Source: Naegleria gruberi
Taxonomy: Eukaryota
Length of the DNA stretch: 64,000 nucleotides
Strand: one strand, 5' to 3'
Assembly (NCBI GenBank): GCA_000004985.1
Contig: GG738896.1
The position numbers were made by a program, and so were the translations under genes. Below the pieces are notes generated by a model. It saw nothing but the letters and a program-made list of their open reading frames with translations. It did no database searches and was not told the origin of the DNA. Below are positions 19,927-58,074 of this stretch, in pieces (the first letter of the stretch is position 1; each line of letters begins with the position of its first letter).

Positions 19927-19999
19927 CGCCCACCGTGGGGGTCGAACCCACGACCACAAGGTTAAGAGCCTTGCGCTCTACCGACTGAGCTAGACGGGC
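19927..19999 (-). tRNA. tRNA-Lys (anticodon CUU)
   Basis: The reverse complement GCCCGTCTAGCTCAGTCGGTAGAGCGCAAGGCTCTTAACCTTGTGGTCGTGGGTTCGACCCCCACGGTGGGCG folds as a cloverleaf. A and B boxes are present. It closely matches eukaryotic tRNA-Lys-CTT. Confidence 0.9.
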
Positions 20000-20336
20000 T
20001 TCACGTCCTAACACAACTACAAGATATTTTGTGTTTATCTTATTGTCAATTCCCATGTAGGGAAGTTTGTCATTTGGAATTACATGATGCTATAGTTTGC
20101 TATTCTCTTTAAATTAGACAATCAACACAAAAATCAACAGTTCAACAAAAGATGGTGGATGGAGTTAATTACTTGTTCGACAATAGTATGTATGTACATG
20201 AGTTTATTTACATGTTAGAATATCAAATACATATGTTAGAAAGAATGAATTAAATACACTGCTGATGAAAGGCTTTTTGTTTCATTTTTTGATATTAAGA
20301 AAAATACAATGTATTGAACAACTGGCAAAAGGAACT

Positions 20337-20409
20337 CTCCCCCTGGTGGGCTCGAACCACCGACCTGCAGATTAACAGTCTGACGCTCTACCGACTGAGC
20401 TAAGGGGGA
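20337..20409 (-). tRNA. tRNA-Asn (anticodon GUU)
   Basis: The reverse complement TCCCCCTTAGCTCAGTCGGTAGAGCGTCAGACTGTTAATCTGCAGGTCGGTGGTTCGAGCCCACCAGGGGGAG has a 7-bp acceptor stem. The anticodon loop is CTGTTAA. The T-arm GGTGGTTCGAGCCCACC is typical of tRNA-Asn. Confidence 0.85.
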
Positions 20410-20569
20410 ATTCATAGGCTGTTGAAAATATCTATAAATCTTATCATATATCGATAGAATGAAAAAACACAAAGCAAACTATTTAACTAATATAAGATTT
20501 CAGGCTTACTTTCTTCCTATGTGTAGCATTAAAAATTGCAAGTTTAGAGAGGAAAAAAAAAGTTCAAAA

Positions 20570-25269: not shown

Positions 25270-27405
25270 ATGCTGGTCTCAAATTCTGATCCTGCTGTTG
25301 TTAAGCCATCACCATCATCATCATCAATTAGCGGTCATGGTATTCAAATTGTGAATATTATTGATGAATTTATTCAGATAATCAAAGATAAAACGAATAT
25401 AGATGATTCCAATGGAAGTATTTGTAATAGCATTACAGAAGAAGATATTATCTCACACAATAATTTATCAACTTCCCCTCCAATGAATAGCAGTATTCAA
25501 GATAATACTGATAATGCTGATAATACTGATACTAATAGTGGTACTAATTCTGAACTGATGAATTGTTCTTATGATGAAAAACAAATATTTTCGGAGACAA
25601 ATAATGATGATGAAAATTGTTCAACTCTTCAACAAGCTGGCAATGTTATTGAATCAGAAGATAATGATGACAACAGTTTAACTGTTGCTGCTGCTGAACA
25701 ACTATTAAACAAAATGGAAGATGATATTAATGAAGGTATTGAGACAATTAATCAATCTTTGGAAGGCATTGATTGTTGTACAACTATTCAACAATCAATT
25801 GATCTGCCATCAACAAGTAATGCTGCCAATTGTACCACTATTAACATGAACAATGATAAGTCCTTCTTCCATCATCGTGATGATGATGATGATGTAATAA
25901 CATGTACTGAAAAGAATGAAAGCAATTGTACAATAGAACAAAAAGATCATCAAGGAAATAAGAGAAAACATGAAGGTTGTCTTGATAATCTTCCAAAGAA
26001 AAGTAAGGTTGAACATAATTCTAATAGGACAATTGCTTCCTTATTGAAAATTGATAAAAATCCTGCCAAGTACATTGTTCCATTACTTCAACAGACTAAT
26101 GCAGAGAAATATCATACTGGATGTGTAAATGAAGTATTGAGCTATTTGAACAAATTTTCCAACGGAATATCAGAAGATGAAATTATCAATACTGACACAT
26201 TGGATGAATATCAAGATAATGATACTAAAATTTGGCATGCTGAGAAGATTGGTGAGGGATCATTTGGATGTGTTTTGAGAGTTACAAAGAGAAATGAGTC
26301 AACACTTAAAAATGAATTTGTACGAGTTGTCAAAATCATTCCAAATGCAACTATGGGAGTGAGTGAAGCTGTTAAGGGTGCCAGATTAACACATCCAAAT
26401 GTTGTCAAAGTACATCATGCCATGTTGATTAGATATATTTGTTGCATTGAAATGGAATATATTGAAGGAGGTAGTTTAGCAAACTATATCAAATTTAATT
26501 GTAAAAAGTTTACTATTCACAAAGACACTGTGAAGAATATGTTATTTCAATGTTTGGAAGTATTATTATTAATGAAACAACATGAAATTGTACACTCAGA
26601 TATTAAGCCAGATAATATTATGGTAAGAGAATCATTTGATATAGCAATTGGTGATTTTGGAGTTTCTTTACAAAATCAAACCATGTCAAGTCAAACATTA
26701 GGTGGTTCAAAACGATATATGGAACCTAAATTGAAGGCAAATTTTAATACTGATGAATTTAAACCAGATTTTAGTACTGATTTGTATTCTCTTGGAATGA
26801 CATTTGAGGAATTGATTGCTAATTCTCCTAGAAATAACAAGGTTCATGAATGTATTCAGGGTTTGAAATCAAAAGATTCATCACAAAGAATTAAAGCATG
26901 TTATGAATTCGCTTCTGAGATCATTGTTAAAGAGAATAGGAATTTTAATAATATTTGGTTCAATGAGGAAGAAATGAAACCTCACTTGAGAGAATTGAGG
27001 AAACAATTAATATTGGAAGAAATGACATCTTACAAAGACTTTAAGAAAGCAACAAAAAATGATCCTTCATTATTGAGTGAAAAACAATTCATATTGAATG
27101 CACTTTGTAAAATACATGAATGGGAAATTATAACACTCATTGATGATTCATTGAAGAGTGATAAGGAAATTGTCATGACTGCTATTAAGGAAAGAGGAAG
27201 CAGTGCTGTTCAGGATGTACTTGAAGAGTTAGACCCCTACTATGTATTATCAGATGAAAAGTGCCTAAATCAGATCTCAGAAATACTAGCAGATGATCCT
27301 GAAAGTAAATATGAGATTAGTGAAATGTATGGAATTGATTTTAGTGATGAAGAAGATATGGACAATTCAGATAATGATGATGATGATGATGAGAACTCAG
27401 ATTAA
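25270..27405 (+). CDS. protein kinase with D/N-rich N-terminal region and C-terminal DUF4116-like repeat region
   Basis: 711-aa ORF. Motifs: IGEGSFGCV, VKII, HSDIKPDNIMV (HRD replaced by HSD), DFGVS, YMEPK, DLYSLGMTFEEL. The C-terminal IVMTAIKERGSSAVQDVLEELD resembles DUF4116 repeats. Confidence 0.8.
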   Translation: MLVSNSDPAVVKPSPSSSSISGHGIQIVNIIDEFIQIIKDKTNIDDSNGSICNSITEEDIISHNNLSTSPPMNSSIQDNTDNADNTDTNSGTNSELMNCSYDEKQIFSETNNDDENCSTLQQAGNVIESEDNDDNSLTVAAAEQLLNKMEDDINEGIETINQSLEGIDCCTTIQQSIDLPSTSNAANCTTINMNNDKSFFHHRDDDDDVITCTEKNESNCTIEQKDHQGNKRKHEGCLDNLPKKSKVEHNSNRTIASLLKIDKNPAKYIVPLLQQTNAEKYHTGCVNEVLSYLNKFSNGISEDEIINTDTLDEYQDNDTKIWHAEKIGEGSFGCVLRVTKRNESTLKNEFVRVVKIIPNATMGVSEAVKGARLTHPNVVKVHHAMLIRYICCIEMEYIEGGSLANYIKFNCKKFTIHKDTVKNMLFQCLEVLLLMKQHEIVHSDIKPDNIMVRESFDIAIGDFGVSLQNQTMSSQTLGGSKRYMEPKLKANFNTDEFKPDFSTDLYSLGMTFEELIANSPRNNKVHECIQGLKSKDSSQRIKACYEFASEIIVKENRNFNNIWFNEEEMKPHLRELRKQLILEEMTSYKDFKKATKNDPSLLSEKQFILNALCKIHEWEIITLIDDSLKSDKEIVMTAIKERGSSAVQDVLEELDPYYVLSDEKCLNQISEILADDPESKYEISEMYGIDFSDEEDMDNSDNDDDDDENSD

Positions 27406-33320: not shown

Positions 33321-34640
33321 TCATTCAATTGATTTAATTAGAATGTCTGTATAAATTTGTCTATTGAGTGTCGAATAGAGTTTTGGAAAGGTTCTATAAA
33401 TTTTAAAATCATAAAGAGGATTCACTTGAATAACTATGTGGGTGTCTGTTCTTCTCTGTTCATCATATCCACCATAGAGATTGATGATACCTCTTTCCTC
33501 ATCAATAAATATTGAGCTACAATTGAGTGGAAGAATATTTTCAACCTCAAGTAGAGTCCATGTGTTATATTTCAAATTGTAAATATAACTGTCAGAGTAG
33601 GGAATGTAATCATCATTACATCCACCAAAAATAAACATTTCATCATTCGATATTTTACAAGTGGTTCCTGCATGTCCAAATAGAGGAGGTGTAATACTAT
33701 TGTCATAGGTTTTCCACACTAAAGTACTTAAATTCAATATACATAATTGGTTGGTAAGTGTTTGATTGTCCACACCAATATCACCTCCATAAATAACAAG
33801 CACATCAGTATTGTCTTTTTTCATGAGAATTCCACTCGAATATCCTCGTGGCACTATTTCATCTCCTGTTGTTGCTAACTTGGTCCATTTTCTGAGTGAA
33901 ATATTAAATTCCCATACATCTGAATAGGATTCATCTCCACATCCTCCAAATAAGAGTAATGAATGATTACTCTCTCTGTACAGAAATACATGACCTCTTC
34001 TTCTAGATGGCCATTCAGAATTTCCATCAGTTGGTTCTGTAAATTGCTCCCAATTCCACTGACAGGTTCTTCCATCTACACGTATTAAATCATTGTAATA
34101 TTTTGATTCTTGGTTATCGAGCCCTCCAAACATCCAAAATATTGGGTCATTCTCTTGTTTAGTAAAGCCATGATAGTATCGTGAATCTTTTTTATCCAGA
34201 TTGGAAGAAATTGGTTTCATCCATGTATATGTTCTCAAATCAAATCTATGAATCTTTCCATTTGTTTCATTTCTTCCTCCCCAAAAGTAAACAATTCCAT
34301 CATGATGAACCACACAAGTATGTGAATCTGAATCACCTATTGAAAATCGACCATCAAAATAATTGTATGCAGGCAACAATCTTCCAACTTTAATCATCAA
34401 TATTGATGGTGAAATATATATTAAAAACCTACCCTCTGATCGATCAGCCAATTCATAACCAGAAGTCTGCATCACTGGTTCCTTGTATTCATCCTCATCT
34501 TCAGTAGTTGTTGTTGTTGTTGTTGTATTCACTTCTTCTTCTTCTACTTTACGTAGACACAAACATCTCTGTCTGAACCAATTTACAGTCCCATCACGTG
34601 CAAGTAATTCCTTCTTCATTATTCTTTGTTTGGATATCAA
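33321..34640 (-). CDS. kelch-repeat (beta-propeller) protein
   Basis: 439-aa ORF. Repeated kelch signatures: YFWGG, MFGGLDN, LLLFGGCGD…SDVWEF, VIYGGDIG, MFIFGGCND…W. Confidence 0.75.
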   Translation of the reverse strand: MISKQRIMKKELLARDGTVNWFRQRCLCLRKVEEEEVNTTTTTTTTEDEDEYKEPVMQTSGYELADRSEGRFLIYISPSILMIKVGRLLPAYNYFDGRFSIGDSDSHTCVVHHDGIVYFWGGRNETNGKIHRFDLRTYTWMKPISSNLDKKDSRYYHGFTKQENDPIFWMFGGLDNQESKYYNDLIRVDGRTCQWNWEQFTEPTDGNSEWPSRRRGHVFLYRESNHSLLLFGGCGDESYSDVWEFNISLRKWTKLATTGDEIVPRGYSSGILMKKDNTDVLVIYGGDIGVDNQTLTNQLCILNLSTLVWKTYDNSITPPLFGHAGTTCKISNDEMFIFGGCNDDYIPYSDSYIYNLKYNTWTLLEVENILPLNCSSIFIDEERGIINLYGGYDEQRRTDTHIVIQVNPLYDFKIYRTFPKLYSTLNRQIYTDILIKSIE

Positions 34641-38702: not shown

Positions 38703-41055
38703 ATGTTATTCAGAATTACAGTTGTTAAATGTACTGATCTTCCACCCATGGATGCCAATGGACTATCCGATGGTTTTTGTGAATTGTGGGTTGTCAATTC
38801 GAAAACCAACAAATACCTCGAACCACCAAAGAATCAAAATGAAATTAAACGTACACAAATTGTCATGAAGAATTTAAATCCAGTCTTTAATGAAACTTTT
38901 GAATTTGATTTTAGTGAAAAGTTGAAGAGACGTGAAATTGATTTTGCAACAAGAGTATCAGAGGAAGATGATATTGATGATGATTATATTCTTGATGATC
39001 CGATGGATAATTTATTAATGATTAGAATTGTTGATTATGACAAATTCACAAAGAATGATGGTATGTATTGAATGATGGTTGTTATATAGTAGCTATATTG
39101 TTCATGATGTTACTACTGATGATGTTATTGATGATGACGATCAAAACTTGTGGATTGTTGTGAAATTGTTGAATATTATGATTTTATATAATTGATTGAA
39201 TAATATAATTAATTGAATATGATGATATTGAATAGTAATTGGATTTGTTCTACTTCAAGTATTCGGATTGAATTTAAAACCAAATGAAAAGCAACGTAGA
39301 ACTTTTCCAATTGTTGGTTCTGATCAGGGTTCTATTGAATTGATTATTGAATCTGTTTATGATCCAAAATCAATGCAAGGTTCTAGTTTTGCTAATTTAC
39401 CAGCTGTTTCCTCACTTTCATATGAAGCTGATGCTCCTTCAAATGTTATCATGACAGTTGGTCCAGTGATTGGTTTAGTAAAGAGTACTAGTGCTAGAAT
39501 TCTTGTGGAATGTTCGAAAGATTTGATTAATAATAATGATTCCGAGTTGGTATTGGATGTGGTTTGTTATCCAATTTGTGAAAGATCTCATTTAGAGAAG
39601 AGAGATGATTATCTCAATAAGCGTTTATTGCATCTACATATGCATGATACTCATGGTTCTTATCATGAAGCTATTCTTAAACGTTCACTTTTAACAAAAT
39701 CAAAGAGGGAAACTCTTAAAGCAACTAATATAATCAAAAAGAAGGTCATTATTCCAAATGCCAACATTCCACACACCTTTACAATTGAAGGTTTATCTCC
39801 AGATTATGTTTATAGAGTTGAATTCCCTAATGTTGTTAATACCAAGACAAGAGTTGGTATTATCAAGACAATGGTTAGTGATAATTTGGGAAATCTCAAT
39901 ACTAGATCACACCATTTGAACACGGCAGCTGTTAGTTGCAATTTAATTGAAAGACGTATTCCTGATAAGGATGTTTGGGAAAGAATGTTAGAAAAAGTTG
40001 ATGAACTTGACATTTTAATGCATTGTGGTGATCAAATTTATAGTGATTGTGGTCACAATGCATTCGATGAAGCAAAAAGAATTTGTGATGGTAGAATTAA
40101 ACTTGAAAAGGATGAGGAAAATGAAATTAAGGAACTTTTTAGAAAGTATTACAGATTAAATTGGAATCACCCTCCAACTAGAAGAATCATGTCTCAAGTT
40201 TCAAATTTAATGATCTTGGATGATCATGAAATTAGAGATGATTGGGGATCTGATGAATGTGATAAGGATAAGGGATCTGTTGAATATTATATTGGTAGAT
40301 TGGCACGTGAAGTTTATTGGGAATATCAAAGAAGTCTCAGAGAAGATGTCCTCTCAATGAATTATGAGGAAACTTTCAAGAAACATGAAGGATATTATCA
40401 TGTGTTTGGTGATTATGCAATCTTATTCTTAGATTTGAGAGCTGCTCGTTCATTCAATTCAGAATTGTCAGGAGATAAACCATTCCTAACACAACCTCAA
40501 TGGGATGATTTAAATAATTGGCTTTTCAAGGATAATAATGCCCTTGCTTCTGAGAATATAAAGGCATTGATTTGTGTCTGTTCCGTTCCATTAGTTTTCC
40601 TTAATAAGAAGATGACTGATAGTTTACCAAAGATTACTTCTAAACTTTCAGATATGAGAGACCACTGGAATTATGGACATCAATTTAATGAACAAATTGG
40701 TATTCTCAACTCAATTAATAGATGGAAGAAAGAACAGCCAAATAGAGAAGCAGTATTTGTTGCTGGTGATGTACATATTGGAGGTGTTACTGAAATTATG
40801 TATAATAATGAAATGGTATTGAAACAATTAACCACTAGTTCTGTTTCTAACAATGAATTTTCATGGTGTTTAGGATTATCAATGAGATTTATGCTCACTA
40901 AGAGTTCAGAACTCAAAGAAGGTTGGACATTTAAACATCAAAAGTGGACAAGAAAACGTAATTATGGAATTCTTAATATTGCAACAGACGGTGAAAAAGT
41001 TACACCAGTGATGAATCCTTACTTGAATACTTACATTAAATCATATAGATATTAA
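38703..41055 (+). CDS. C2 domain fused to PhoD-like metallophosphoesterase, 2 exons
   Basis: Exons: 38703..39060 and 39260..41055. 199-nt intron. C2 features: CTDLPPMDANGLSDGFCELWV, LNPVFNETFEFDF, IVDYDKFTKND|V. PhoD-like motifs in exon 2: HCGDQIYSD, ILDDHEIRDDWG, FVAGDVHIGG. Confidence 0.7.
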
Positions 41056-41117: not shown

Positions 41118-43587
41118 ATGGGCAACAAGGCATCAACACAGGGCAGAATTGGAAGATCTAGATTGGAAATAATTGATTGGAATGATGAGGAGGGAATCAT
41201 ACCACCACCATCATCGGTTATTAAAATATGGAATAGACACGATTTATTGGAGCAAACTTTGACCGATCGAGTAGATATTGACTATTACTATAGAAAATCG
41301 TTGGATAGCAAACCTTTCAAGGTAATTATTAAATATTATTATAATTATTTAATAATAATTAAAAGGTGAATTTATTGTCTGAAGGCTACACTAAGGATCA
41401 AGTTGCCGATTTTGAAACTCATCCCCATCCATCCTATAGATCTAATAATAGGAAAATTTGTTTAAGACTTAAAGAATTGTTTAACAGGATTGAATTGGAA
41501 AATCTGATGGAACATTTGGAAAAACTCCAGTTTCATTCTTTGGAAAAGGAATATCCAAAAGAATATAGAAATTGTAAGAGAGTTTTAATTAAGAGCAAAC
41601 CAATGGCAGATGCTATTTGGAATAGAATTAAACCAATGTTGAAGGTTTCAGATTTTAAAGATTTGAGACCTTATGGATTTGACAATGAAGGATTGTGGAA
41701 ACCTATTGGAATTAATGAAGTATTAAGAATTTCAAAATATGAGGAGGGTGGATATTTCAAACCTCATATGGATGGTCAATTTGTTATCGATGATAATCGA
41801 AAGAGTATTTTAACTGTATTAATTTATTTGAGCCAAAGTTTTAGTGCAGGAACAAATTATTATCATTGTATTGAAAAGAAAGATAATTCTCTATTATTGC
41901 AACACGTACTCTCTACTAATTGCAATATTGGTGATTGTATTCTTTTTAATCATGAAATTTTTCATAGCGGAGAGCCAGTAGATTATGGTACCAAGTATGT
42001 ACTCAGAACTGAAATTATCTTCCAACGTGTAGATGAGGATAATGTTTCTCGTACTGATTATAAACTCAGTCAAGAATATCAGAATATTAAGAACCTTGTT
42101 GAGGAAAGTGATAGATTGGAAAAAGAAGGGGATATTGAAAAATCTACCAAAGTTTACCTTGAAGCTCAATATTTACAAATGAACATTTCATCAAATCTTC
42201 AATGTAGTAAGCCAAGCTTTTTGGAAAGCACACTTCCATCAGAGGTCTTATCACTAATTTTCAGCTATCTTACTCCTACAGAGGTCTGTACGAGTATTGT
42301 CTATCTGAACAGGAATTTGAATGCGAGTGCAAGAGACCAATACACTTGGAAACAAAGATACAAAGACGAATGGTGCGACATCTCAAAAAATGGGTTTGAC
42401 TATAACTCTACCATTATGAAAATGGAAGAGGATATATTTCATGACCTCACAGATTGGTTTCATTTATTTGTTTCCAGGAAAAATCTTGATAAGGAATTTT
42501 GTGCATTTATTGTTAATCCAGGTCCAAATTATTTCAGGTATGCCCTCAAGAGTGATTCAAATATGAGATTTGAGATTTCATATAGTGGAATTGGAATACA
42601 TAGCCAGTAAGTTTAAATTCAAAGATCATGACCTAACATCACATCTTTGTAAATAGTTTTTTCTTTCCTGGAAAAGGGCTTAACGATCTATTTCTTGGTG
42701 ATGCAGGAAAGCAATACCAAAGACTTTATGATCCTATTGATTTATTCATAGATCAAGAAGCAGTTGATCCTATGATTTTAGCTTGTTTTATTGAGTACAT
42801 ATTGAGAGATTCTTTGGACTTGAGTTTGAAACAATATCCAGTACTCCTAGCCAAACCATTCATGTTTTCAAGTGAGGACGAGGAGATTTTGAAAGATATT
42901 CTTGTAAGTTATTAAGTTTATATAATGAAATCTAGAATTGGATAGTTTGGAGCTGGAATACCTGCACTTCATATCGAACACTCTTACACATTGATTTCCT
43001 TATATTATGGAATGCCTAATTGTACAATAATAGATATACGCCCAGATTATGTAGGTGTTGCAGTTGTAGAAAATGGAAAACCATTACCAACATCAACATT
43101 CTTCTCACCAGACTTGACTAATTTTAAACATCATATTAAAGCTCACTATGATATGGACTGGCCAAACAAGTTCGTCCAACAAAATGCAATAGTAAGAATT
43201 GATGAAGATGATAGTTCATCAGTTCAGTATGGATTTGGAGAGTTATTTTACACAACAATTTTACCATACATTGAGGAATTTTTACAAAAATTAGAGAATG
43301 CTCCTCCAAGTACAATTATTAGAGGTGAATTATCACTTGTTCCGGGGCTTGTAACAAGATTAATTAAGGATCTTTCTGGAAAATTTGTGGAGAAAAACTT
43401 TACATTCACTCACGACCCTGAAAATTGTGTTTGGGATATTTTGAAGGGAGGTAAAATAATGTCAAATCTAAGTGATTTCAAAGAAAAATGTCAAAAGAGT
43501 GGAAACTATGAACAAGTTTGCCATCCTTCGCAATATGCTACTTTTGATCAACTTTCTCAAAAAATCAAACAATCAAATAACAAGTAA
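41118..43587 (+). CDS. fusion protein: N-myristoylation signal, prolyl-4-hydroxylase-like 2OG-Fe(II) oxygenase, F-box, divergent actin-related protein (Arp), 4 exons
   Basis: Exons: 41118..41321, 41366..42606, 42657..42903, 42946..43587. Introns of 44, 50 and 42 nt, with GTAATT, GTAAGT and GTAAGT donors. N-terminus MGNKAS. Oxygenase HxD…H…R triad: PHMDGQF, FHSGEPV, KYVLRTEI. F-box: LPSEVLSLIFSYLTPTEVCTSIVYLNRNL…W. The Arp N-terminal subdomain begins in the same continuous ORF (FIVNPGPNYFRYALKSDSNMRFEISYSGIG, compare actin [28 protein letters not shown]). It continues through LFLGDAGKQY, PVLLAKPF, TIIDIRPDYVGVAVVENGKPL and IIRGELSLVPGL. Confidence 0.6.
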
Positions 43588-43684: not shown

Positions 43685-45280
43685 ATGGATCAAGTTAATA
43701 CATGTTCAATCTTGGATTTAGATCAAGATTACCTCGATCTTATTCTGTCATTCTGTCCGAATAGAGGATGTTATGAAATTCAATCGATGAGACATGTTTG
43801 TAAGGTTTGGAATTTGTTATTGACTGGACAGGGTTCTGAAAGCTCTTCCGATATTGCTTCCCTTCATCAAAGTATATCAAAAACAATTAAGGAAGTATTG
43901 AAGAATGATAATTTTCGTGAAAGAGTTGAAAAAGTCTATTTACCTCGATTGTATTATCAAATATTTCTTGATTTCTTGCCCAGAGATGAACCATTGGACA
44001 GTTTAATGATTCCTATCATGAATGCTTTTAAAAACAAATTTGGTGATGAGGCAGTTAGAAGAATTTCTAGAGTAGAATTTGAAGTTGATTTCATGATGGA
44101 AAACCATCAAGTTCTGGAGAATGTAGAACATACAGTGGATAAGACAATAATATTATCAAATGAAAGATCCGATGAAGAATTTAAAAGTATTGAAAATCCA
44201 AACAAGTTATTCCATGTAGACTTCGAAAAGAAGAACAATCCAGAAGAATTCTTTGCCAAGTACAAACCACTGGATGAGATATTCGGAGAATGGAAAAATC
44301 GACCATTCATAGATAATGATATGCTTGTTAATCCTTACAGATTATATAGAAAAGTAATTCTTCAGTTTAAAGTTTATAGTGAGGAGTTTTTCTCTAAGGG
44401 AGTTTTAAGATTACCAAGTACAGAAATATCAATTGGGGATTCGAGTAATATTTATGAAGAAACTGATGTTGCACTTAAAAGTTGCTTAATTCGTAATTAT
44501 TCATACCAAGAAACAACAGTGTACAAGTTTAAACCTATTGATCCTAGGAAAGATATGGAAAAATTGATGGAGTATACTATTTACTACTTTTTAAAACATA
44601 GATTACTGAGAAGAATGGATAAAATTAATTTGAGTTTGAAAGAATTATTGGAAGATAGTAAGATTAATTACCTAACTCAATTAAATAGGGAGGATCAATA
44701 TTACTTTCTGACAATGAGAGAATCTATGTTGAAGAAGTGTAGAGATTCATTAATATCTGATGTTCGACATTTCAATGGTCCTATTTCAGAAAAGATAAAT
44801 GCCTCTAACGCTTGGACTACTGTTGGTCATCGAATAGAACATTACCTTTCTTTAACCTGCTTAGATACAATGAACAATTATCAAAGAGTCAACTTTCTCA
44901 AACAATTTTTCAACTTTATGTACAAGGAAAAACTCAACATTTCGGAGAAAGTGAGGAAAGAAGTTTTCAAGAAATTTGGAATTGATCATATTGGGAAATC
45001 TTTCACATTCACTGAGACACCAAACAGCCTTAATTTAACTGATATTGTAATGAGCTTTGAGAAAGAATTCGATCACGACAAGAATACCGTTTATTGTCAC
45101 GAATTCATCTTCCCTTCTTTTCCTATAATGTCCATATGTGATGTTAAAGAAACTACTCCGTTCAATACAAGCAAAAAGACAACAAACGATTACAGTTCTA
45201 GGTGCTGCTGCTCAAACCTATTTCAATGTTGCAGAGCACTTTATGGTGTAATGTTTCACCCTGACAGATTTGAAGATTAA
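43685..45280 (+). CDS. F-box-like domain protein with orphan C-terminal region
   Basis: 531-aa ORF. N-terminal ILDLDQDYLDLILSFCPNRGCYEIQSMRHVCKVWNLLL fits the F-box consensus. Cys-rich C-terminus RCCCSNLFQCCRALYG. Confidence 0.55.
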   Translation: MDQVNTCSILDLDQDYLDLILSFCPNRGCYEIQSMRHVCKVWNLLLTGQGSESSSDIASLHQSISKTIKEVLKNDNFRERVEKVYLPRLYYQIFLDFLPRDEPLDSLMIPIMNAFKNKFGDEAVRRISRVEFEVDFMMENHQVLENVEHTVDKTIILSNERSDEEFKSIENPNKLFHVDFEKKNNPEEFFAKYKPLDEIFGEWKNRPFIDNDMLVNPYRLYRKVILQFKVYSEEFFSKGVLRLPSTEISIGDSSNIYEETDVALKSCLIRNYSYQETTVYKFKPIDPRKDMEKLMEYTIYYFLKHRLLRRMDKINLSLKELLEDSKINYLTQLNREDQYYFLTMRESMLKKCRDSLISDVRHFNGPISEKINASNAWTTVGHRIEHYLSLTCLDTMNNYQRVNFLKQFFNFMYKEKLNISEKVRKEVFKKFGIDHIGKSFTFTETPNSLNLTDIVMSFEKEFDHDKNTVYCHEFIFPSFPIMSICDVKETTPFNTSKKTTNDYSSRCCCSNLFQCCRALYGVMFHPDRFED

Positions 45281-45394: not shown

Positions 45395-46401
45395 TTATCT
45401 GAGTAACATTTTTCTTGCCTTATCTTGATCATTAGAGAAGGAAAATGTTCCAACAATTGTTTCAGCAGATTGTCTTCTATCATAAATTTGAGAACAAATA
45501 ACATCCAAAACCTTAATCTTATCATTGTCCATATCCAAAACGTTCAAAATTGAAACAGCGTCATTACATGACATTTGTGCAATATTATTTGTTGACTTCA
45601 ATTGGTTAATTACCTTGACTTGATCATTGGCAAAATCAAATAATTTAAGAATTGTCACTAAATCCATGGCCATAATTGGACTACATTCGGCAGATGAATA
45701 CGAAACAACTGCCTTGACCTTATCTGAATCGAAAGTTGAATTCTTACAAGCTGCAATAATTTTTTGAGCCAAACCACCAGATGAATAATTAGTGACAGGT
45801 GGAGGTGTATAATTATTTTGTGGAGGAGGTGTATATGTTGATGTGGAAGTGGTATGTGTAGAAACAGTCATATTTGGCATTCCCATGTTGAAACCAATTC
45901 CAACTCCTGGCATACCCATATTCATATTTACTCCAACAGTTGGTTGCACACCAATTGACATGTCAACGGTAGGTTGCATAGTGACAGTATTATAATTTGA
46001 TTCATAAGTTGTGGTATTCATTGTCATTCCAATAGTTGGTTGAGCATTCATTGTAGAATATCCATTAGAAACAGTCATTCCTACAGTTGGCTGAACATGT
46101 ACAGTTGGTTGTGCACTAACTCCTACACTCAATCCAACACTTGGTTGAGTACTCACTGTAGAATATCCATTATTGGTTGAGGCAGACACTGTCATTGTTG
46201 GTTGAACAGTGGTATGAACATTTCCTGACACTGTGACACTTGGTTGAACATGAACATTACCGGACACTGTTACTGTTGGTTCCTCATCATAGGCTCCAGC
46301 CAATGAATTTTCTAAACATTCAACAAATAATTTAGAACTAACCAAAATTAACGAAACTTACGGTGACTAACACTCCTGAAAATACTTCTAAAGAATGACA
46401 T
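45395..46401 (-). CDS. QPTV-repeat protein with C-terminal DUF4476-like domain, 2 exons
   Basis: Exons on minus strand: 46401..46362 and 46311..45395. The 50-nt intron (GTAAGT…TTTAG) gives the N-terminus MSFFRSIFRSVSHQ|NSLAGAYDEEP. Tandem (V/M)(S/T)…QPTV repeats, a P-rich linker, and a C-terminal globular domain (…FSNDQDKARKMLLR). Confidence 0.55.
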
Positions 46402-46851: not shown

Positions 46852-48120
46852 TCAATCTGAGCTGGTAAATTTAACATGAAAATTTAACATTCTTTCTGTT
46901 GCACAAATTACCAACTCAAAAAATCTGCCAACAGCACTCTTTAAATCAACACCAGAATCAATCATTGGTCTCCAAGCACTGAACATGGACATGTAGAGCG
47001 AGAGTTGAATAACAGCTGCTTTTCTTGTCTCTCTCTTCAATTGCTCTAATGAATAGGTTTTTTCTATTATTGGCTTATTGCAAATTAAACTATTCCAATA
47101 ACTCTCCATTAAATTATGAAAATTATCATTCACCTGTTCACTTAATAAACAGGAAGATATGAAAAACCCTAAATCATAACCACAAGAACCAAATCCAATA
47201 CATTGAAAGTCAACAAACGCAACAGATTCTTCCGAAACTTGCAACATATTGTCTAATCTAAAGTCACAATGATTGAGTGTCCTGTTGTTGGCGGTGAGTA
47301 CTTGGCATCCTTCTTCAACAATTTCGAAAATCTTTCCAGAAGAAACTTGCTCATCAATCACTAGTGCATTCTCTGCCAATTGTTTCATACCAGTTTGTGA
47401 AGAGAAGTACTTTAAAACATAATGATAGTCTTCCCATTTGTCTTTCCACACTTGTTTTACCTCCTCAACCACTTCCTCTACTGGTAGAATATTATTCTTC
47501 TTATTAATCATTGAAGTAACAGTGTGATGAAGTGGAGTCATAACATCATATCCATTCACAACCAACTGAGCCTTGAATTTCTCCTCATCCTCTGCAGTAT
47601 ACCAAAATTCTGATTGTATCAATGCCCACTCCTTCAAGATTAATCGAATCAACTCTGTAGAACATCCAACAATTTGATCTAAAGCCTTCCCTGATTTTCT
47701 CAAAATTAATATGAATTGATCCTTGTTGTTTCTATCAATTTCTGCTACATAAACCGGTGGAACAACATTTCTATTCAATAAATTATTTATACTATTAGTA
47801 TTTAATAAATATTGATAGAAGGCTATTTCCTTCTTGTAGGCTGATGTTTCTGCTAGAAAGTCTCTATCCACATGATGAGCAATACTCTTATCATTCTCAT
47901 CCTTTGCAAATTTAATAAAAACTTCATCCAGAATATTTCCCTCCGAATCTTTTAATTCAAATAAAACAACTTGACTGCATTGTCCCTGAATATTGGAATT
48001 ATTATATGAAACGGAAGCCAATTTATCAAGCCAAACCAACCTTCCATTCATATGTTGCTGATTCGAAAGTTTTTCCTTCAAATATTCAACTGTAATTTCT
48101 GAAGGTGTTTTTGGAATCAT
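46852..48120 (-). CDS. EcKL/CHK-like (aminoglycoside-phosphotransferase fold) small-molecule kinase
   Basis: The start was chosen at MIPKTPSEI. The ORF is open further upstream to 48309. Catalytic HxDxxxxN motif LNHCDFRLDNML and metal-binding VAFVDFQCIGFGSCGYDLGFF match the family. Confidence 0.75.
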   Translation of the reverse strand: MIPKTPSEITVEYLKEKLSNQQHMNGRLVWLDKLASVSYNNSNIQGQCSQVVLFELKDSEGNILDEVFIKFAKDENDKSIAHHVDRDFLAETSAYKKEIAFYQYLLNTNSINNLLNRNVVPPVYVAEIDRNNKDQFILILRKSGKALDQIVGCSTELIRLILKEWALIQSEFWYTAEDEEKFKAQLVVNGYDVMTPLHHTVTSMINKKNNILPVEEVVEEVKQVWKDKWEDYHYVLKYFSSQTGMKQLAENALVIDEQVSSGKIFEIVEEGCQVLTANNRTLNHCDFRLDNMLQVSEESVAFVDFQCIGFGSCGYDLGFFISSCLLSEQVNDNFHNLMESYWNSLICNKPIIEKTYSLEQLKRETRKAAVIQLSLYMSMFSAWRPMIDSGVDLKSAVGRFFELVICATERMLNFHVKFTSSD

Positions 48121-48295
48121 TTTTTTTCCATCTCCAATTTGAAGATTTTCAATTTTTACAATGCAAGTTAGTGCGCATAACCTTAATGAAGTTTGAATAT
48201 TAGATATTATCCTCACTGTAAACAACTTGATTTGCGGCATATAATTGATAACTAATAGTAGAATTAGTACATTTGGGAGTTTAACTTGTAAAAAA
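48121..48295. promoter_or_regulatory. shared divergent intergenic/promoter region between the EcKL-like kinase (minus) and the ABCC transporter (plus)
   Basis: Only 175 bp separate the two inferred start codons, in head-to-head orientation. Confidence 0.4.
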
Positions 48296-51200
48296 ATGGC
48301 TGAACGCACTAAGAATGAAGATGAGGAAAGCCTGATCGTTATTCCTTCGGCATTCTCATCTTCTCAACAAGATCAAGCACAACACCTTGAACAGGTTTCG
48401 GAAGAGAAAGATAATTGGAAGGATGGTGTAGATATTTCCTCTCCTGAACATTTAGATGGAAATGCTTCGTGGTTTTCGATATTGTTTTTTATATTTGTTG
48501 ATCCATTATTAAAAGTTGGATTTAAAAAGGCGGGAGATGGTCCAATGATGATTTGGATTAAAAAGTTGATTTCCAAATTGAAAATTAGAGATTTTGAAAT
48601 TAGAGAAAGTGAGGGAATGACTCATGCAGATATTCCTAAATTGGCAAAACAGTGGACCACTGAACATCAATTTGAAATATTTGAACCAATATTTAGAAAG
48701 AGTTTCATTAATGAAAGACAGAACTATTCAGAAAATGGAGGAATTACAAAGAATTTTGGAACTTTATTTTTGAAAGTTAGCGAGAGAACATTTAGATGGA
48801 GAGGATGGTATGGTGTTGGTCTGTGGAAATTAGCAGAAATGATTTTCCATTACGTTTCACCATTAATTTTATATTTGTTATTGGAATCTATCAAGTCAAC
48901 TGGTATTCAGTCCGATTCTAAACCCTCAAAAGCAGTCGAATCCATATCTATGTTTTATAATGTGCAGTATTCAGTTGTTGCTTTTCAAAATGAAACTCTT
49001 CAAAATGCTGCACTCATCACAAATTCAACATTTAATAACCAAACCAGTTGGCTAAATCAGAACCTTCCTTTAAGCAATGGATTTTTCCAATTTGGGATTG
49101 TAATCTTGCTGTTCTTGTGCAATATACTGCCAACAATTTTCATCAATCAGTATACCTATGGAGTGGGTAATCTTTGGTTTGCTTGGAGAGGTTGTATTCA
49201 AGCAGCTGTTTTTCAAAAGATTAACAGAATTACTAGCTCAGAAAGAAGCAAATTCAAAAGTGGTGAAATTACCAATTTATTTACCACAGATCCAACAAGA
49301 ATTGCAACTCTTATTCTATATTTTCATGAATGTTGGGTTGTTCCAGTTTCACTTTTGGTCGGTTTGTCCATGATTTGCATATTCTTTGGATATAGTGCCT
49401 TCATTGGAGTGGGAGCAATGTTATTAGTGAGTCCTCTTATTCCAGTACTAGCCAAGATTCTAACGAAGGTTGAGGGATGGCTCAGTAAGTTTAGAGATGA
49501 AAGAGTAAAGAATTTGAACGAATTACTGAATGGTATTAGAATTATCAAATTCTTTGTTTTTGAGGAAAAGATGAAAGAGAAAGTTATGGAGAGTAGAAAA
49601 AAAGAGTCCAAAGGGCTGTTTGCATCTGTCCTTACCATGAGTTCACAAAGATTTGCAGCAGTTTTAATGTCAATAGTTGTAAGTTGTAAATTGTTATTAG
49701 AGTTTTTTTTTACACTTTATTAAGGGAGGAAGCGTAACATTTATTTCATATGCTTACTTTGGTGGGCAGTTGACAATTTCAAACATGTTTACTGGCCTTA
49801 TTTTGTTTGATACTTTCAGAGTACCCCTCACAACCTTTCCACTAGTTCTTTCTGGATTAGTTTCTTCTTATGTGAGTGCTAAACGTGTTGGACGATTTCT
49901 TTACAGTGATGAACAGGTTCATCTTCCTCACGACCATTATAATAAGGCTCATTTATGGAATGAAGTTTCCAATCGCTCTTCTTCTGATCACTCTACTAAT
50001 TTGGAAGATAATGTTGCAATTGAGTTTGAAAATGCGTCCATAAAGTGGACTGAAGACGGTGAAACTATAGTTTCAAACTTGAACTTAATATTGGAAAAAG
50101 GAAAACTCTATTCAATCATTGGAGATACTGGTTCAGGAAAATCGACCCTCATTTCTTCCATAATTGGGGAGTCAATTGTCTCTGAAGGCAGTTTGAAAGT
50201 GAATCCTCAGTTGAGCCTTTCTTTATGTGATGAAAATCCATGGATGATCAATTCCAGTGTTAGAAACAATATCATTTTCGATAAGTCCTTAGAATTTGAC
50301 AGTGAAAAGTACAACAGGGTTTTGGAAGTTTGTCAATTGAAAGACGATTTGGAGCAATTCTCAAATTTTGATGAAACTGAAATTGGTTTCTCTGGAATTA
50401 ATCTCTCAGTTGGCCAAAGACATCGTATCAGTCTTGCAAGAGCTTGTTACTCCAATTCAGATATTATCATTATGGATTCTACACTTAATTCAGTTGATGC
50501 AAAGATTTGTAAGTCGATTTTCAGAGATTGTATTTGTGGCCATCTGAAAGGTAAAACCAGAGTGTTACTGACCCATTCACTTCAATTATTGGAGATGGTC
50601 GACGAGGTAATTGTTCTTGAAAAGGGTAAACTCATTGCAAAAGGACCACTTCATTCGATTATGCATGCCTATGATTTTTCAAAGTTAATTTCGGAAAAGG
50701 GAGAAGAATTCGAAAACAATGAATCCAACGACAAGGAGGAACAAGTGAAAAAAGATCCGAAATCCACTGAAAAAGATGACAAGAAGGGTAAACTTGTAAT
50801 TGCTGAAGATAAGAGCAATGAAACTATTAGCTGGGGAGTTTTTCTTTCGTTTGTAAAAGAATGTGGAATTATACTAGTTTTGTTTAGTATAATTTCATGT
50901 CTATTTTCAGTTAGCTCCAAAGCAGGTGGTCAAATATGGATATCAGTTATGAATAATGATTATCTCGGATTGGATATCTTTACTTATGTTTGGATTTTCT
51001 TTGGAATTGGTCTAACAGATGCTTTTTTTGCTTCTCTGAAGGAATTAGCTTTTGGTCTTGCCTCTCTTAAGGCCTCCAACAGTTTTCACAAAAAGATGTT
51101 GAATAATATTCTTCATGCCCCAACTAGATTCTTTGATCAGAACCCAACAGGAAGAATTTTGAATAGATTCACACAAGACGTAGTGGTATTGGACACACAA

Positions 51201-52580
51201 ATGATCTTTGCATTGCCACAATTTATCACAACAATTATTTCAGTTTGCTTTACACTTGTTATGATTTCAATTGTCACTCCACTATTTCTAATTGTAGTTA
51301 TTCCTATCGCTCTTGTATTCTTTGTGGTCCAGGAGTATTATAGAGCTACATCACGTGAAATTAGAAGATTGGAATCCATTTCTAGAAGTCCAGCAATGTC
51401 ACATTTTAATTCCTGTTTGGAGGGTGTTAAAACCATTAAGGCTGCTCTTATTCATGAAAGTATTTACAAGGACAATTTTATGAAGATTGATTTTACAAAC
51501 AAACATTCATACGGAAGATTTCTAATCAATAGATGGTTAGGTGTTAGAATTCAATTAGTTGCACAATTAGTTATTTTTTTTACAGCATTATTTGCAATTA
51601 TTACGAAACACTTTCAACATAATAACGAAGCTCTTTTAGCACTGGTTATTACTTACTCCTTACAATTGAGTGATACTTTCACAGAGTTTGTTCGTTCATT
51701 TGTTGATTTGGAAAGTCATATGACTAGTGTAGAGCGAATCATTCATTACAGTTCAAATATTGAACAAGAGGCCCCTTACGAACTCGAAAGTGATCCAATT
51801 CCATCACAATGGCCTTCTCAAGGGCATGTTCAATTCAACTCTCTTTCTGCAAGATACAGAGATGATCTAGACCCAGTTTTGAATTCCATTCAACTGGAGA
51901 TTAAACCAGGAACAAAAATTGGAGTTGTTGGAAGAACAGGAAGTGGAAAGAGTACCTTGCTAATTTCCCTGTTTAGATTCATAGAAGCAAGTGAAGGAAA
52001 TATAACAATTGATGGAGTGGATATTTCACAAATTGGATTGAAAACTCTCAGAAAATCTCTTTTAATTATTCCACAAATCCCTATTCTATTCTCTGGTACC
52101 ATTCGATACAATCTAGATCCATTCAATGAATTTCAAGACCATGAAATTTGGAAAGCCTTAGAGAGAGTTCATATGAAAGAGAAAATTCAACAAATTGGAC
52201 TCTCTGGAAATGTAACAGAGAATGGCAGCAATTTCTCAATTGGAGAAAGACAATTACTTTCACTTTGTCGATGCATTTTGAGAAGAGCTAAAATAATCAT
52301 ATTTGACGAGTCAACAGCTTTTGTGGATCACAATAGTGATGAGATTGTGCAAAAAGTCATTAGAGAAGAGTTTAAGGAATCGACAATCATTACTGTTGCC
52401 CACAGATTGGATACCATTATTGATTCTGATATGGTTGCATTTATGCAGGATGGTGAAATAATTGAAATCGGTTCTCCAAAGGAATTATTATCTCAGCATG
52501 ATAGTAACTTTTCAAAATTAGTGAATGAAACAGGTAAAAACTATTCAGCACATTTGAAAAAGAAGGCGAATGATAACTGA
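48296..52580 (+). CDS. ABCC (MRP-type) full ABC transporter, 2 exons
   Basis: Exons: 48296..49678 and 49725..52580. The 46-nt intron has a GTAAGT donor and a TTAAG acceptor. This model is colinear with MRP1 (…AAVLMSIV|GGSVTFISYAYFGGQLTISNMFTGLILFDTFRVPL). NBD1: Walker A GDTGSGKST and signature LSVGQRHR. TMD2. NBD2: GRTGSGKST, FSIGERQLLSLCR, IIIFDESTAFVD, Walker B and H-loop. Confidence 0.9.
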
Positions 52581-57740: not shown

Positions 57741-58074
57741 TTCACTACTTCAAAATGTATAATTTCAATGTACCTTCCATAACAGTTCATCCTTGCAAAA
57801 TCCTTAGTACCTTATTCAGACCAAAAACTTCAATCAACAAGAAGGTTATTCCAGTTGACAATTTCTGACTTAATGAATTGAACAATTCAATGTTGACTGT
57901 ATTTTCCTTTCCAAACAAAGACTCAATTATTCCATATTTGCACTGATATCGGGAGATTAAATCTGGTAATGTAATTCTTCATGCAACATCATCAGCACAA
58001 CGTTACCTGTTCATTTGCAACTGAAGGTTCTTCTTCAACCCCAAGATGATCATCCTCGAAGTTTCAATATAAAA

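What the first reader, a model, noticed from the sequence alone, without database searches (positions are those of the whole stretch)
41118..43587. Single reading frame joining a myristoylated prolyl-hydroxylase-like 2OG oxygenase, an F-box and a divergent actin-related protein
Between 41366 and 42606 there is no stop codon separating three elements. The first is a P4H-like 2OG-Fe(II) oxygenase domain (HxD…H…R triad PHMDG / FHSGEPV / KYVLRTEI). The second is a canonical F-box (LPSEVLSLIFSYLTPTEVC…W). The third is the start of an actin-fold N-terminal subdomain. Across two short GTAAGT introns the frame continues with unmistakable actin/Arp blocks (LFLGDAGKQY, PVLLAKPF, IDIRPDYVGVAVVENG, IIRGELSLVPGL). 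An upstream exon adds an MGNKAS myristoylation signal.

I do not know this domain architecture (2OG oxygenase + F-box + Arp) from any described protein family. Dictyostelids use a cytoplasmic prolyl hydroxylase (PhyA) to modify Skp1, the adaptor that binds F-boxes. Fusing a P4H-like domain to an F-box would place a hydroxylase directly on the SCF complex. The Arp moiety could tether it to actin or to chromatin-remodeller-type assemblies.

Alternatively the locus may be two or three genes that became fused by stop loss or by assembly error.
Basis: partly seen in the sequence, partly recalled or inferred. Interest (0 to 1): 0.85.

Follow-up and report, generated by a model that had tools for sequence, protein, structure and literature searches.

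The report
Hydroxylase–F-box–actin-fold fusion gene in Naegleria
The finding is a real single gene of the amoeba Naegleria gruberi that joins an oxygen-using prolyl-hydroxylase-type enzyme, an F-box (the handle that plugs proteins into SCF ubiquitin ligases) and a divergent actin-like domain, and it belongs to a widespread family that I found described in no paper.

Summary
Window 41118-43587 (+) holds one four-exon gene with introns of 44, 50 and 42 nt, encoding 777 aa. The protein has three parts:
- a P4H-type 2OG/Fe(II) oxygenase with H202, D204, H268 and K278 all conserved;
- a canonical F-box;
- a full but divergent actin-fold domain.

It is not a mis-join. The same order of domains occurs in many proteins from Naegleria, Willaertia, Acrasis, dictyostelids, Physarum, Arcella, a foraminifer, a diatom and a chytrid. 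Several of these are transcript-derived, and in Naegleria lovaniensis and Willaertia the domain junctions lie inside single exons.

The window is Naegleria gruberi, not a dictyostelid: a cullin gene 27 kb away is 100% identical to an N. gruberi protein. This copy is a long-branch paralogue and is absent from the public protein sets I searched. Its actin ATP-site residues are degenerate.

Most likely it is a Skp1-docked, O2/2OG-dependent protein hydroxylase whose actin-fold domain acts as a targeting or substrate module. The function is inferred, not shown. The closest precedents are the JmjC F-box proteins (Dictyostelium JcdI, KDM2A/B). I found no paper describing this architecture. I rate it a new variant of a known kind, of moderate to high interest.

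The parts
41118..41321 (+). Exon 1 (residues 1-68). The ATG lies two codons after an in-frame TAA. Starts MGNKAS, a possible N-myristoylation motif.
   Evidence: Residues 33-68 align to the N-terminal profile of paralogues. The MG start is not conserved.
41322..41365 (+). Intron 1, 44 nt, GTAATT...AAG, phase 0
   Evidence: The unspliced frame stops at 41367-41369. The 'K|VNLLS' junction is conserved in paralogues.
41366..42606 (+). Exon 2 (residues 69-482). Carries the oxygenase, the helical hairpin, the F-box and the first strands of the actin fold in one uninterrupted frame.
   Evidence: ORF 41366-42610. Spliced model.
41453..42031 (+). P4H-type 2OG/Fe(II) oxygenase domain (residues 98-290). 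Key codons: H202 (41765-41767), D204 (41771-41773), H268 (41963-41965), K278 (41993-41995), R282 (42005-42007).
   Evidence: Pfam PF13640. The five residues are invariant in A1. H268 and K278 stay invariant across 110 family members, and H202, D204 and R282 are kept in at least 90% of them. AF2 model pLDDT is 75-92 here. Foldseek finds PiuC, PPHD, DdPhyA, PHD2 and Tpa1. The profile hits only P4Hs in the PDB. Coordinates.
42059..42196 (+). Conserved helical hairpin linker (residues 300-345), specific to this family
   Evidence: Two helices with pLDDT about 80 in the AF2 model. Conserved consensus in A3 and A4. Present in most of the 156 relatives. No Pfam family.
42215..42373 (+). F-box (residues 352-404; Pfam match 357-400)
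   Evidence: PF12937 25.7 bits, above the 24.3 cut-off. Family F-box profile against the PDB: FBXL5 1.8e-13, KDM2B 1.8e-10, Cdc4, Skp2, Fbw7.
42494..43584 (+). Divergent actin-fold (orphan Arp) domain, residues 445-777, spanning exons 2-4. Degenerate nucleotide-site motifs at 42509-42532 (IVNPGPNY), 43027-43050 (IIDIRPDY) and 43315-43335 (IIRGELS). The subdomain-4 region is shortened.
   Evidence: Family profile against actin, E 5e-18 over actin residues 1-337. Single-sequence hit to Arp4, 2.7e-5. Alignment to beta-actin. The model of relative P0004 matches actins over about 355 columns.
42607..42656 (+). Intron 2, 50 nt, GTAAGT...TAG, phase 2, inside the subdomain-2 region of the actin fold
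   Evidence: Willaertia has its single intron at nearly the same place.
42657..42903 (+). Exon 3 (completes residue 482, then residues 483-564)
42904..42945 (+). Intron 3, 42 nt, GTAAGT...TAG, phase 0
   Evidence: This is the only AG acceptor that keeps the frame and restores the actin block 'ILFGAGIPALHIEHS'.
42946..43587 (+). Exon 4 (residues 565-777 plus the TAA stop at 43585-43587)

Best explanation
This is one real, intact, four-exon gene of Naegleria gruberi. It encodes a 777-aa member of a conserved but unstudied eukaryotic protein family. The domain order is P4H-type 2OG/Fe(II) oxygenase, helical hairpin, F-box, actin-fold domain.

Mechanism, step by step:
1. The F-box docks the protein onto Skp1. 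This is inferred from a canonical F-box.
2. The oxygenase is catalytically competent and hydroxylates a protein side chain, most likely proline, using O2 and 2-oxoglutarate. This is inferred from the conserved metal triad and 2OG-binding Lys, and from its only solved relatives by sequence being prolyl 4-hydroxylases.
3. The actin-fold domain sits where F-box proteins carry their substrate receptor. In this copy it has lost key nucleotide-site residues, so it most likely serves as a nucleotide-independent protein-binding or targeting module. Partners could be actin, actin-binding proteins or another Arp partner. This is inferred.

Whether the Skp1 complex goes on to act as an SCF ubiquitin ligase, coupling hydroxylation to ubiquitination, is open. 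The alternative is that Skp1 merely stabilises or regulates the enzyme, as in Dictyostelium JcdI.

Shown here: gene structure, domain identities, conservation of the fusion, source organism. Inferred: every biochemical step.
For: Gene and architecture:
- Open frame and splice model; matching splice signals in the annotated cullin gene nearby.
- Pfam and profile assignments of the three domains.
- Structure models and fold matches.

The fusion is conserved:
- N. lovaniensis ORF L001:6902-7813 carries the end of the oxygenase, the F-box and the start of the Arp in one exon.
- Willaertia ORF L002:6001-7761 does the same.
- A 2032-nt environmental contig is one ORF for the whole protein.
- Transcript-derived Physarum and Arcella proteins have all three Pfam domains above cut-off.
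- Members occur in N. gruberi, N. fowleri, Acrasis, five dictyostelids, Dracoamoeba, Bolivina, Odontella and Rhizophlyctis.
- 502 cluster representatives score below E 1e-30.
- 59 of 62 long members with an F-box also have the actin fold.

Catalytic competence: H297 and K307 (P0001 numbering, equal to H268 and K278 here) are invariant across 110 members, and H228, D230 and R311 are at least 90% conserved.

Precedent for step 1 and the open question: JcdI is an F-box dioxygenase that binds Skp1 and needs it for solubility (PMC9485057).

Source organism: the cullin is 100% identical to an N. gruberi protein.
Against: - There is no transcript, protein or interaction data for this gene. The product is absent from the public protein collections searched: the best relative is 35% identical.
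- This copy sits on a long branch.
- Its Pfam scores are marginal for the oxygenase (27.5 against 27) and below cut-off for Actin (17 against 27).
- Its actin ATP-site residues are degenerate: D11 to N, G156 to R, G302 to E, Q137 to H. Subdomain 4 is shortened.
- The substrate is unknown.
- Inter-domain geometry could not be judged (pTM 0.41-0.58).
- An oxygenase placed N-terminal to the F-box is atypical for SCF receptors.
Confidence: 0.55

Rival explanations
1. The locus is two or three separate genes (oxygenase, F-box protein, Arp) that only appear joined because of stop-codon loss, an assembly error or a wrong splice model.
For: No transcript data exist for this locus. No identical protein is on record.
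Against: The same domain order is found in dozens of proteins from Heterolobosea, Amoebozoa, Rhizaria, stramenopiles and a chytrid. This includes transcriptome-derived sequences and single-exon junctions in Naegleria lovaniensis and Willaertia. The first beta-strands of the actin fold are in the same exon and frame as the F-box, so a separate Arp gene would encode an incomplete fold.
Confidence: 0.02
2. The window copy is a decaying or functionless paralogue (an incipient pseudogene) of a family whose other N. gruberi members, P0158 and P0160, do the work.
For: - Long branch, with no close orthologue in N. fowleri or N. lovaniensis.
- Degenerate ATP-site residues and a shortened subdomain 4.
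- Absent from public protein sets.
Against: - 777 codons across four exons stay open, with canonical splice sites.
- All oxygenase catalytic residues and the F-box consensus are retained.
- Exon 1 homology is retained.
- The family as a whole evolves fast: Naegleria paralogues are only 30-50% identical to each other.
Confidence: 0.1
3. The tethered hydroxylase acts on the SCF machinery itself. It would hydroxylate Skp1, as PhyA does in Dictyostelium and Toxoplasma, or the cullin, rather than an outside substrate.
For: The F-box would bring the P4H domain next to Skp1. Skp1 prolyl hydroxylation by a P4H is established in other protists (PMC9485057). DdPhyA is among the structural neighbours.
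Against: - The oxygenase is not a PhyA orthologue. The profile E-value is 0.17 to DdPhyA against about 5e-6 to Bacillus and Chlamydomonas P4Hs.
- From background knowledge, the Skp1 target proline lies by the F-box-binding region.
- This idea gives no role to the conserved actin-fold domain.
Confidence: 0.1
4. The C-terminal domain is a working ATP-binding actin-like protein that joins or caps actin or Arp filaments, bringing the hydroxylase and F-box onto the cytoskeleton.
For: The fold aligns with conventional actin over its full length. Many family members keep D11/G13, G156 and the GG301-302 adenosine motif. Physarum members score 98-124 bits on Pfam Actin.
Against: In the window copy D11, G156, G302 and Q137 are replaced and subdomain 4 is shortened. 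D157 and H161 are not kept in any of the 19 family members aligned. No member groups with Arp1-11 by sequence; the best matches are generic actins.
Confidence: 0.12

Closest known systems
Dictyostelium JcdI/Fbxo13 (and paralogue JcdH), F-box proteins with a JmjC dioxygenase domain
   Same: A non-haem Fe(II)/2OG dioxygenase and an F-box in one polypeptide of an amoeboid protist. JcdI binds Skp1 through the F-box, needs Skp1 for solubility and has an O2-limited activity (PMC9485057).
   Different: The oxygenase class differs: JmjC there, P4H-type (PF13640) here. The order is reversed: the F-box is N-terminal to JmjC there, and the oxygenase is N-terminal to the F-box here. JcdI has no actin-fold domain.
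KDM2A/KDM2B (FBXL11/FBXL10)
   Same: F-box proteins that carry a 2OG oxygenase. Their F-boxes are among the best PDB matches to this family's F-box profile (KDM2B E 1.8e-10).
   Different: They are JmjC histone demethylases with CXXC, PHD and LRR domains, and are chromatin-bound. They have no P4H domain and no actin fold.
Collagen-type and bacterial prolyl 4-hydroxylases (B. anthracis P4H, Chlamydomonas P4H-1, PBCV-1 P4H, P4H-TM)
   Same: They are the only solved proteins hit by the oxygenase profile. They share the HxD...H triad and a Lys about 10 residues after the distal His.
   Different: Identity is about 15%. None is fused to an F-box or an actin fold. The substrate of the present enzyme is unknown.
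PhyA (Skp1 prolyl 4-hydroxylase) and PHD2/EGLN
   Same: Cytoplasmic P4H-fold oxygenases linked to ubiquitin-ligase biology. Both are structural neighbours.
   Different: Not orthologous (profile E 0.17 to DdPhyA). They are stand-alone enzymes that act in trans on Skp1 or HIF.
Orphan or fused actin-family proteins (for example Dictyostelium filactin, and orphan Arps of flies and mammals)
   Same: An actin fold joined to unrelated N-terminal domains, or divergent Arps outside classes Arp1-11 (PMC2441452; PMC7038667).
   Different: The actin domain of filactin is nearly conventional. None of these carries an F-box or an oxygenase. The D. discoideum actinome paper mentions no F-box, hydroxylase or oxygenase.

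Membership tests
2OG/Fe(II) oxygenase, P4H type (Pfam PF13640) | Score above the Pfam gathering cut-off | tested here: met
   27.5 bits against a cut-off of 27, which is marginal. All 59 relatives scanned in A4 match PF13640, best E 2e-14, and individually scanned relatives score up to 50.5 bits.
2OG/Fe(II) oxygenase, P4H type (Pfam PF13640) | HxD...H iron triad and a basic residue that binds the 2OG C5 carboxylate | tested here: met
   H202, D204, H268, K278 and R282 are invariant among close relatives. H268 and K278 are invariant across 110 members, and the other three are at least 90% conserved.
2OG/Fe(II) oxygenase, P4H type (Pfam PF13640) | Double-stranded beta-helix fold similar to solved prolyl hydroxylases | tested here: met
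   AF2 model pLDDT is 75-92 in this domain. Foldseek finds PiuC-like, PPHD, DdPhyA, PHD2 and Tpa1/OGFOD1 at probability 1.0. All 9 PDB sequence hits are P4Hs.
2OG/Fe(II) oxygenase, P4H type (Pfam PF13640) | Prolyl-hydroxylase activity on a defined substrate | not testable with these tools
   Needs a biochemical assay.
F-box proteins (SCF substrate receptors) | F-box motif above the Pfam cut-off and homologous to Skp1-bound F-boxes | tested here: met
   PF12937 scores 25.7 against 24.3. The family profile hits FBXL5 (1.8e-13), Cdc4, Skp2, Fbw7 and KDM2A/B.
F-box proteins (SCF substrate receptors) | Binding to Skp1 and assembly with Cul1/Rbx1 | not testable with these tools
   No complex prediction or experiment was possible. 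A cullin-1-like gene exists in the same window, which shows only that the machinery is present.
F-box proteins (SCF substrate receptors) | A protein-interaction domain C-terminal to the F-box | tested here: met
   An actin-fold domain occupies this position. It is unusual in type: not WD40, LRR or kelch.
Actin/Arp superfamily | Full actin fold, by sequence profile and by structure | tested here: met
   The family profile aligns to actin residues 1-337 of 375, E 5e-18. The model of relative P0004 matches actins over about 355 columns, E 1e-13. The window protein alone scores only 17 bits on Pfam Actin, below the cut-off of 27.
Actin/Arp superfamily | Intact nucleotide-binding motifs (phosphate-1 DxG, phosphate-2 DxGxG, adenosine GG) | tested here: not met
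   The window copy reads NPGPN, DIRPD and GE in place of DNGSG, DSGDG and GG. Several relatives keep the D/G positions, but D157 and H161 are not kept in any family member aligned.
Actin/Arp superfamily | Assignment to a defined class, Arp1-Arp11 | tested here: inconclusive
   The best profile matches are conventional actins. The best single-sequence match is a local hit to Arp4, 2.7e-5. No class-level phylogeny was done.
PhyA-type Skp1 prolyl hydroxylase | Orthology to DdPhyA/TgPHYa | tested here: not met
   Profile E is 0.17 to DdPhyA against about 5e-6 to Bacillus and Chlamydomonas P4Hs. The architecture is also different.
JmjC F-box proteins (JcdI, KDM2) | JmjC/cupin-type catalytic domain | tested here: not met
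   No JmjC or cupin Pfam hit at E up to 1. The domain is PF13640.
N-myristoylated proteins | N-terminal MGxxxS/T consensus | tested here: met
   The start is MGNKAS. The motif is not conserved: none of 20 relatives inspected starts with MG. The modification itself cannot be tested here.

The most novel reading that the evidence does not exclude
The family is an ancient eukaryotic oxygen- and metabolite-sensing module wired to the actin system. The actin-fold domain would dock on actin, filament ends or actin-binding proteins. The tethered P4H would hydroxylate them in an O2/2OG-dependent way. The F-box would then hand them, or the enzyme itself, to SCF for ubiquitination. That would put a PHD-plus-VHL-like logic into one polypeptide, retained in amoeboid and some other protists and lost in animals, plants and most fungi.
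Probability: 0.15. Interest if true: 0.85.

Novelty: new variant of a known kind. Interest (0 to 1): 0.6.

Why it matters
F-box proteins that carry a 2OG oxygenase are known only with JmjC domains (KDM2A/B, JcdI). Actin-related proteins are known as parts of cytoskeletal or chromatin complexes, not as the receptor arm of an F-box protein.

Here a conserved family joins a prolyl-hydroxylase-type enzyme, an F-box and an actin fold. It spans at least five major eukaryotic lineages. That gives a concrete, testable candidate for a link between oxygen or 2-oxoglutarate sensing, ubiquitin ligases and the actin system in amoebae. Genetically tractable Dictyostelium has an orthologue.

The work also flags a gene that appears to be missing from the public N. 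gruberi protein set. It adds an unclassified branch to the 78 actins and Arps reported for that genome.

Tried and rejected
- **Dictyostelid origin.** Rejected: the window's cullin is 100% identical to an N. gruberi protein.
- **Mis-joined genes.** Rejected on the conservation evidence.
- **Synteny with N. lovaniensis.** The neighbour of L001 also has a weak F-box hit, but it shows no similarity to the window's downstream ORF. That ORF has no Pfam hit even at E up to 10.
- **Seeing the public N. gruberi annotation at this locus.** This failed. Exact-product look-ups found nothing for the downstream ORF or for the cullin model, and the spliced product was not accepted.
- **Profile search with 110 members through the word-indexed database.** It returned only 15 Naegleria-type hits because of the candidate cap.
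- **AFDB fold search.** Unavailable.
- **First attempt to slice the oxygenase domain by HMM columns.** It cut the domain short and was redone by motif.
- **Literature.** Five full-text searches and targeted reading found no description of the architecture. The papers read were on peptide dioxygenases, the Dictyostelium actinome, the Dictyostelium Skp1 interactome with its supplement and Naegleria actin.
- **A conserved 'HPHF/Y' motif at the D-loop position as an in-cis proline substrate.** Considered and not pursued. It aligns with the generic actin 'GRPRH' region, and the window copy has HSH.
Full report
**The observation**

The region was read and its ORFs listed. ORF 41366-42610 (+) is open for 414 codons. 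With this window's base composition (30% GC) the chance of that is about 1e-15. Joining 41118-41321, 41366-42606, 42657-42903 and 42946-43587 gives a 2334-nt CDS of 777 codons with no frame break.

The three introns are 44, 50 and 42 nt long. They read GTAATT..AAG, GTAAGT..TAG and GTAAGT..TAG. An annotated N. gruberi gene in the same window, the cullin, maps with an intron that also starts GTAAGT and ends TAG. The start ATG lies two codons after an in-frame TAA.

**Domain identities**

Pfam on the product gives:
- 2OG-FeII_Oxy_3, residues 189-281, 27.5 bits (cut-off 27);
- F-box-like, residues 357-400, 25.7 bits (cut-off 24.3);
- Actin, residues 526-616, 17 bits (below the cut-off of 27).

Alone, the protein hits yeast Arp4 in the PDB at E 2.7e-5. 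Family profiles settle each part.

*Oxygenase.* A profile of the oxygenase domain hits nine PDB sequences, all prolyl 4-hydroxylases. The best are B. anthracis P4H (4.5e-6) and Chlamydomonas P4H (5.3e-6), followed by PBCV-1 P4H, P4H-TM and DdPhyA (0.17). An AlphaFold model of the exon-2 product has pLDDT 75-92 across this domain. Its Foldseek neighbours are PiuC-like oxygenases, Pseudomonas PPHD, DdPhyA, PHD2, Tpa1/OGFOD1 and vaccinia C16.

*F-box.* A profile of the F-box segment hits FBXL5 (1.8e-13), FBXW12, KDM2B (1.8e-10), FBXL2, Cdc4, Skp2 and Fbw7.

*Actin fold.* The whole-family profile aligns to actin residues 1-337 of 375 at E 5e-18. A model of the compact relative P0004 matches conventional actins over about 355 columns.

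H202, D204, H268, K278 and R282 are invariant among the closest relatives. Across 110 family members the equivalents of H268 and K278 are invariant, and those of H202, D204 and R282 are at least 90% conserved. K278 lies ten residues after the distal His. From background knowledge, this is where collagen-type P4Hs place the Lys that binds 2OG.

**The fusion is real and conserved**

The first database search found only four relatives, at about 31-34% identity. All have the same three Pfam domains: two from Naegleria lovaniensis, one from Willaertia magna and one environmental.

- In N. lovaniensis, ORF L001:6902-7813 carries the C-terminal half of the oxygenase, the F-box and the start of the actin fold in one exon.
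- In Willaertia, ORF L002:6001-7761 runs from the ATG through the oxygenase and F-box into the actin fold. Its single intron lies almost where the window's intron 2 is.
- The environmental member is one uninterrupted ORF filling a 2032-nt contig.

An exhaustive profile search of 1.84 billion cluster representatives gave 8524 hits at E up to 1e-3 and 502 at E up to 1e-30. Exact look-ups named their sources:
- Heterolobosea: N. fowleri, N. gruberi (P0158, P0160), at least six N. lovaniensis paralogues, Acrasis kona.
- Dictyostelids: D. purpureum (2127 aa, with extra lipase, STAND and TPR parts), D. cf. discoideum, Cavenderia, Tieghemostelium, Acytostelium.
- Other Amoebozoa, all transcriptome assemblies: Physarum, Arcella, Dracoamoeba, Pyxidicula.
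- Others: the foraminifer Bolivina, the diatom Odontella and the chytrid Rhizophlyctis.

The transcript-derived Physarum and Arcella proteins carry all three Pfam domains. Actin reaches 98-124 bits in the Physarum proteins.

A local classification of 156 relatives found the oxygenase and the helical linker in nearly all of them, and the F-box in about 70. An actin-seeded, iterated HMM found a C-terminal actin fold in 83 of 100 proteins of 600 aa or more, and in 59 of 62 that also have an F-box. Pfam independently found Actin in 13 of 59 members that my first HMM had missed. This rules out the reading in which separate genes were joined by error.

**Source organism and status of this copy**

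A cullin ORF at 12554-14695 (-) is 100% identical to a Naegleria gruberi predicted protein. It is 88% identical to N. fowleri, 60% to Willaertia and 55% to Acrasis. The window is therefore N. gruberi, not a dictyostelid.

The focal product has no identical or close match in the 5.8-billion-cluster collection or among the 50% representatives. The best relative is 35.5% identical. A copy of it would have scored about 940 bits against the search profile. The gene therefore seems to be missing from public N. gruberi protein sets. I could not inspect the annotation itself.

In a neighbour-joining tree the protein lies inside the Naegleria/Willaertia clade on a long branch, with no close orthologue.

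D157 and H161 are not kept in any of the 19 family members aligned. The window copy additionally has D11 to N, G156 to R, G302 to E and Q137 to H, and a shortened subdomain-4 region.

The MGNKAS start fits the myristoylation consensus, but none of 20 relatives inspected starts with MG.

**How it most likely works**

Shown:
- one gene;
- three homologous domains in a conserved order, plus a conserved helical hairpin between the oxygenase and the F-box;
- strong conservation of the catalytic residues, with much weaker conservation of the actin fold.

Inferred:
- The F-box binds Skp1.
- The P4H-type domain is an active O2/2OG-dependent protein hydroxylase.
- The actin fold sits where F-box proteins carry their receptor domain and, in this copy, probably does not bind nucleotide. 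It would act as a protein-binding or targeting module.

Two sub-models remain open. In one, the protein is a true SCF receptor that couples hydroxylation to ubiquitination. In the other, it is a Skp1-stabilised or Skp1-regulated enzyme like Dictyostelium JcdI. JcdI binds Skp1 through its F-box, needs Skp1 for solubility and has an O2-limited activity. The same paper notes that some F-box proteins may carry the F-box only to regulate their own turnover (PMC9485057).

Hydroxylation of actin by a prolyl hydroxylase has been reported for PHD3 (PMC4161513). Non-HIF substrates of the PHDs are contested (PMC6739866).

**Comparison with known systems and novelty**

The nearest functional precedents are the JmjC F-box proteins: JcdI/JcdH, KDM2A/B and sporadic JMJD6-F-box fusions (PMC2938197 Table 1). 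The present family differs in three ways:
- the oxygenase class is P4H-type, with no JmjC hit;
- the domain order is reversed;
- it has an actin fold.

It is not a PhyA orthologue. It could not be placed in any class from Arp1 to Arp11.

Five full-text searches and targeted reading found no description of this architecture (27, 34, 37-39, 68, 87). Public records call the members 'hypothetical', 'F-box domain-containing' or 'Fe2OG dioxygenase domain-containing' proteins. The Naegleria actin literature only counts 78 actins and Arps in N. gruberi (PMC7594500).

**Verdict**

- I rate it a new variant of a known kind, interest 0.6.
- The gene and its architecture are near certain. The Skp1-docked hydroxylase mechanism is plausible but unproven.

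Noticed in passing
window 12557-15038 (-): A two-exon cullin-1-like gene (Pfam Cullin 563 bits plus the neddylation domain). It is 100% identical to an N. gruberi predicted protein and identifies the source organism. It lies about 27 kb from the F-box gene, and I have no evidence that the two are linked in function.
   Followed up: yes
window 43685-45280 (+): The ORF directly downstream (531 aa, 97 nt after the focal stop codon) starts with a stretch that looks F-box-like by eye (LDLDQDYLDLILSF...VCKVWNLLL). It has no Pfam hit even at E up to 10, no similarity to the F-box neighbour of the N. lovaniensis paralogue, and no exact product on record.
   Followed up: partly
window 41118-43587 (+): The focal protein seems absent from the public protein collections, although neighbouring N. 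gruberi genes are present. It is possibly a missed gene model in the N. gruberi annotation.
   Followed up: partly
window 42059-42196 (+); family-wide: A conserved helical hairpin between the oxygenase and the F-box, with consensus ...LxxSxxLxxxGDxxxSTxxYLxAxxxQ.... It is present in most family members and matches no Pfam family.
   Followed up: partly
window 19927-19999 (-) and 20336-20410 (-): Two tRNA genes, tRNA-Lys(CTT) and tRNA-Asn(GTT), about 340 nt apart.
   Followed up: no
window 39268-41055 (+): A PhoD-like phosphatase ORF ends only 62 nt before the focal ATG on the same strand, so the intergenic and promoter space is very compact.
   Followed up: no
P0043 (Dictyostelium purpureum, 2127 aa): One dictyostelid family member carries a 1400-aa C-terminal extension with weak, below-cut-off lipase and STAND-NTPase hits and TPR repeats after the oxygenase, F-box and Arp core.
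   Followed up: no
window 33321-34640 (-), 46852-48309 (-), 45395-46345 (-), 49770-52580 (+), 58015-59505 (+): Other genes in the window: a kelch-repeat protein, an EcKL/APH-like kinase, a DUF4476 protein, an ABC transporter and an AMP-binding enzyme. There are also three protein kinases (1370-2875, 15689-18121, 25270-27405) and a C2-domain protein (6778-7569).
   Followed up: no
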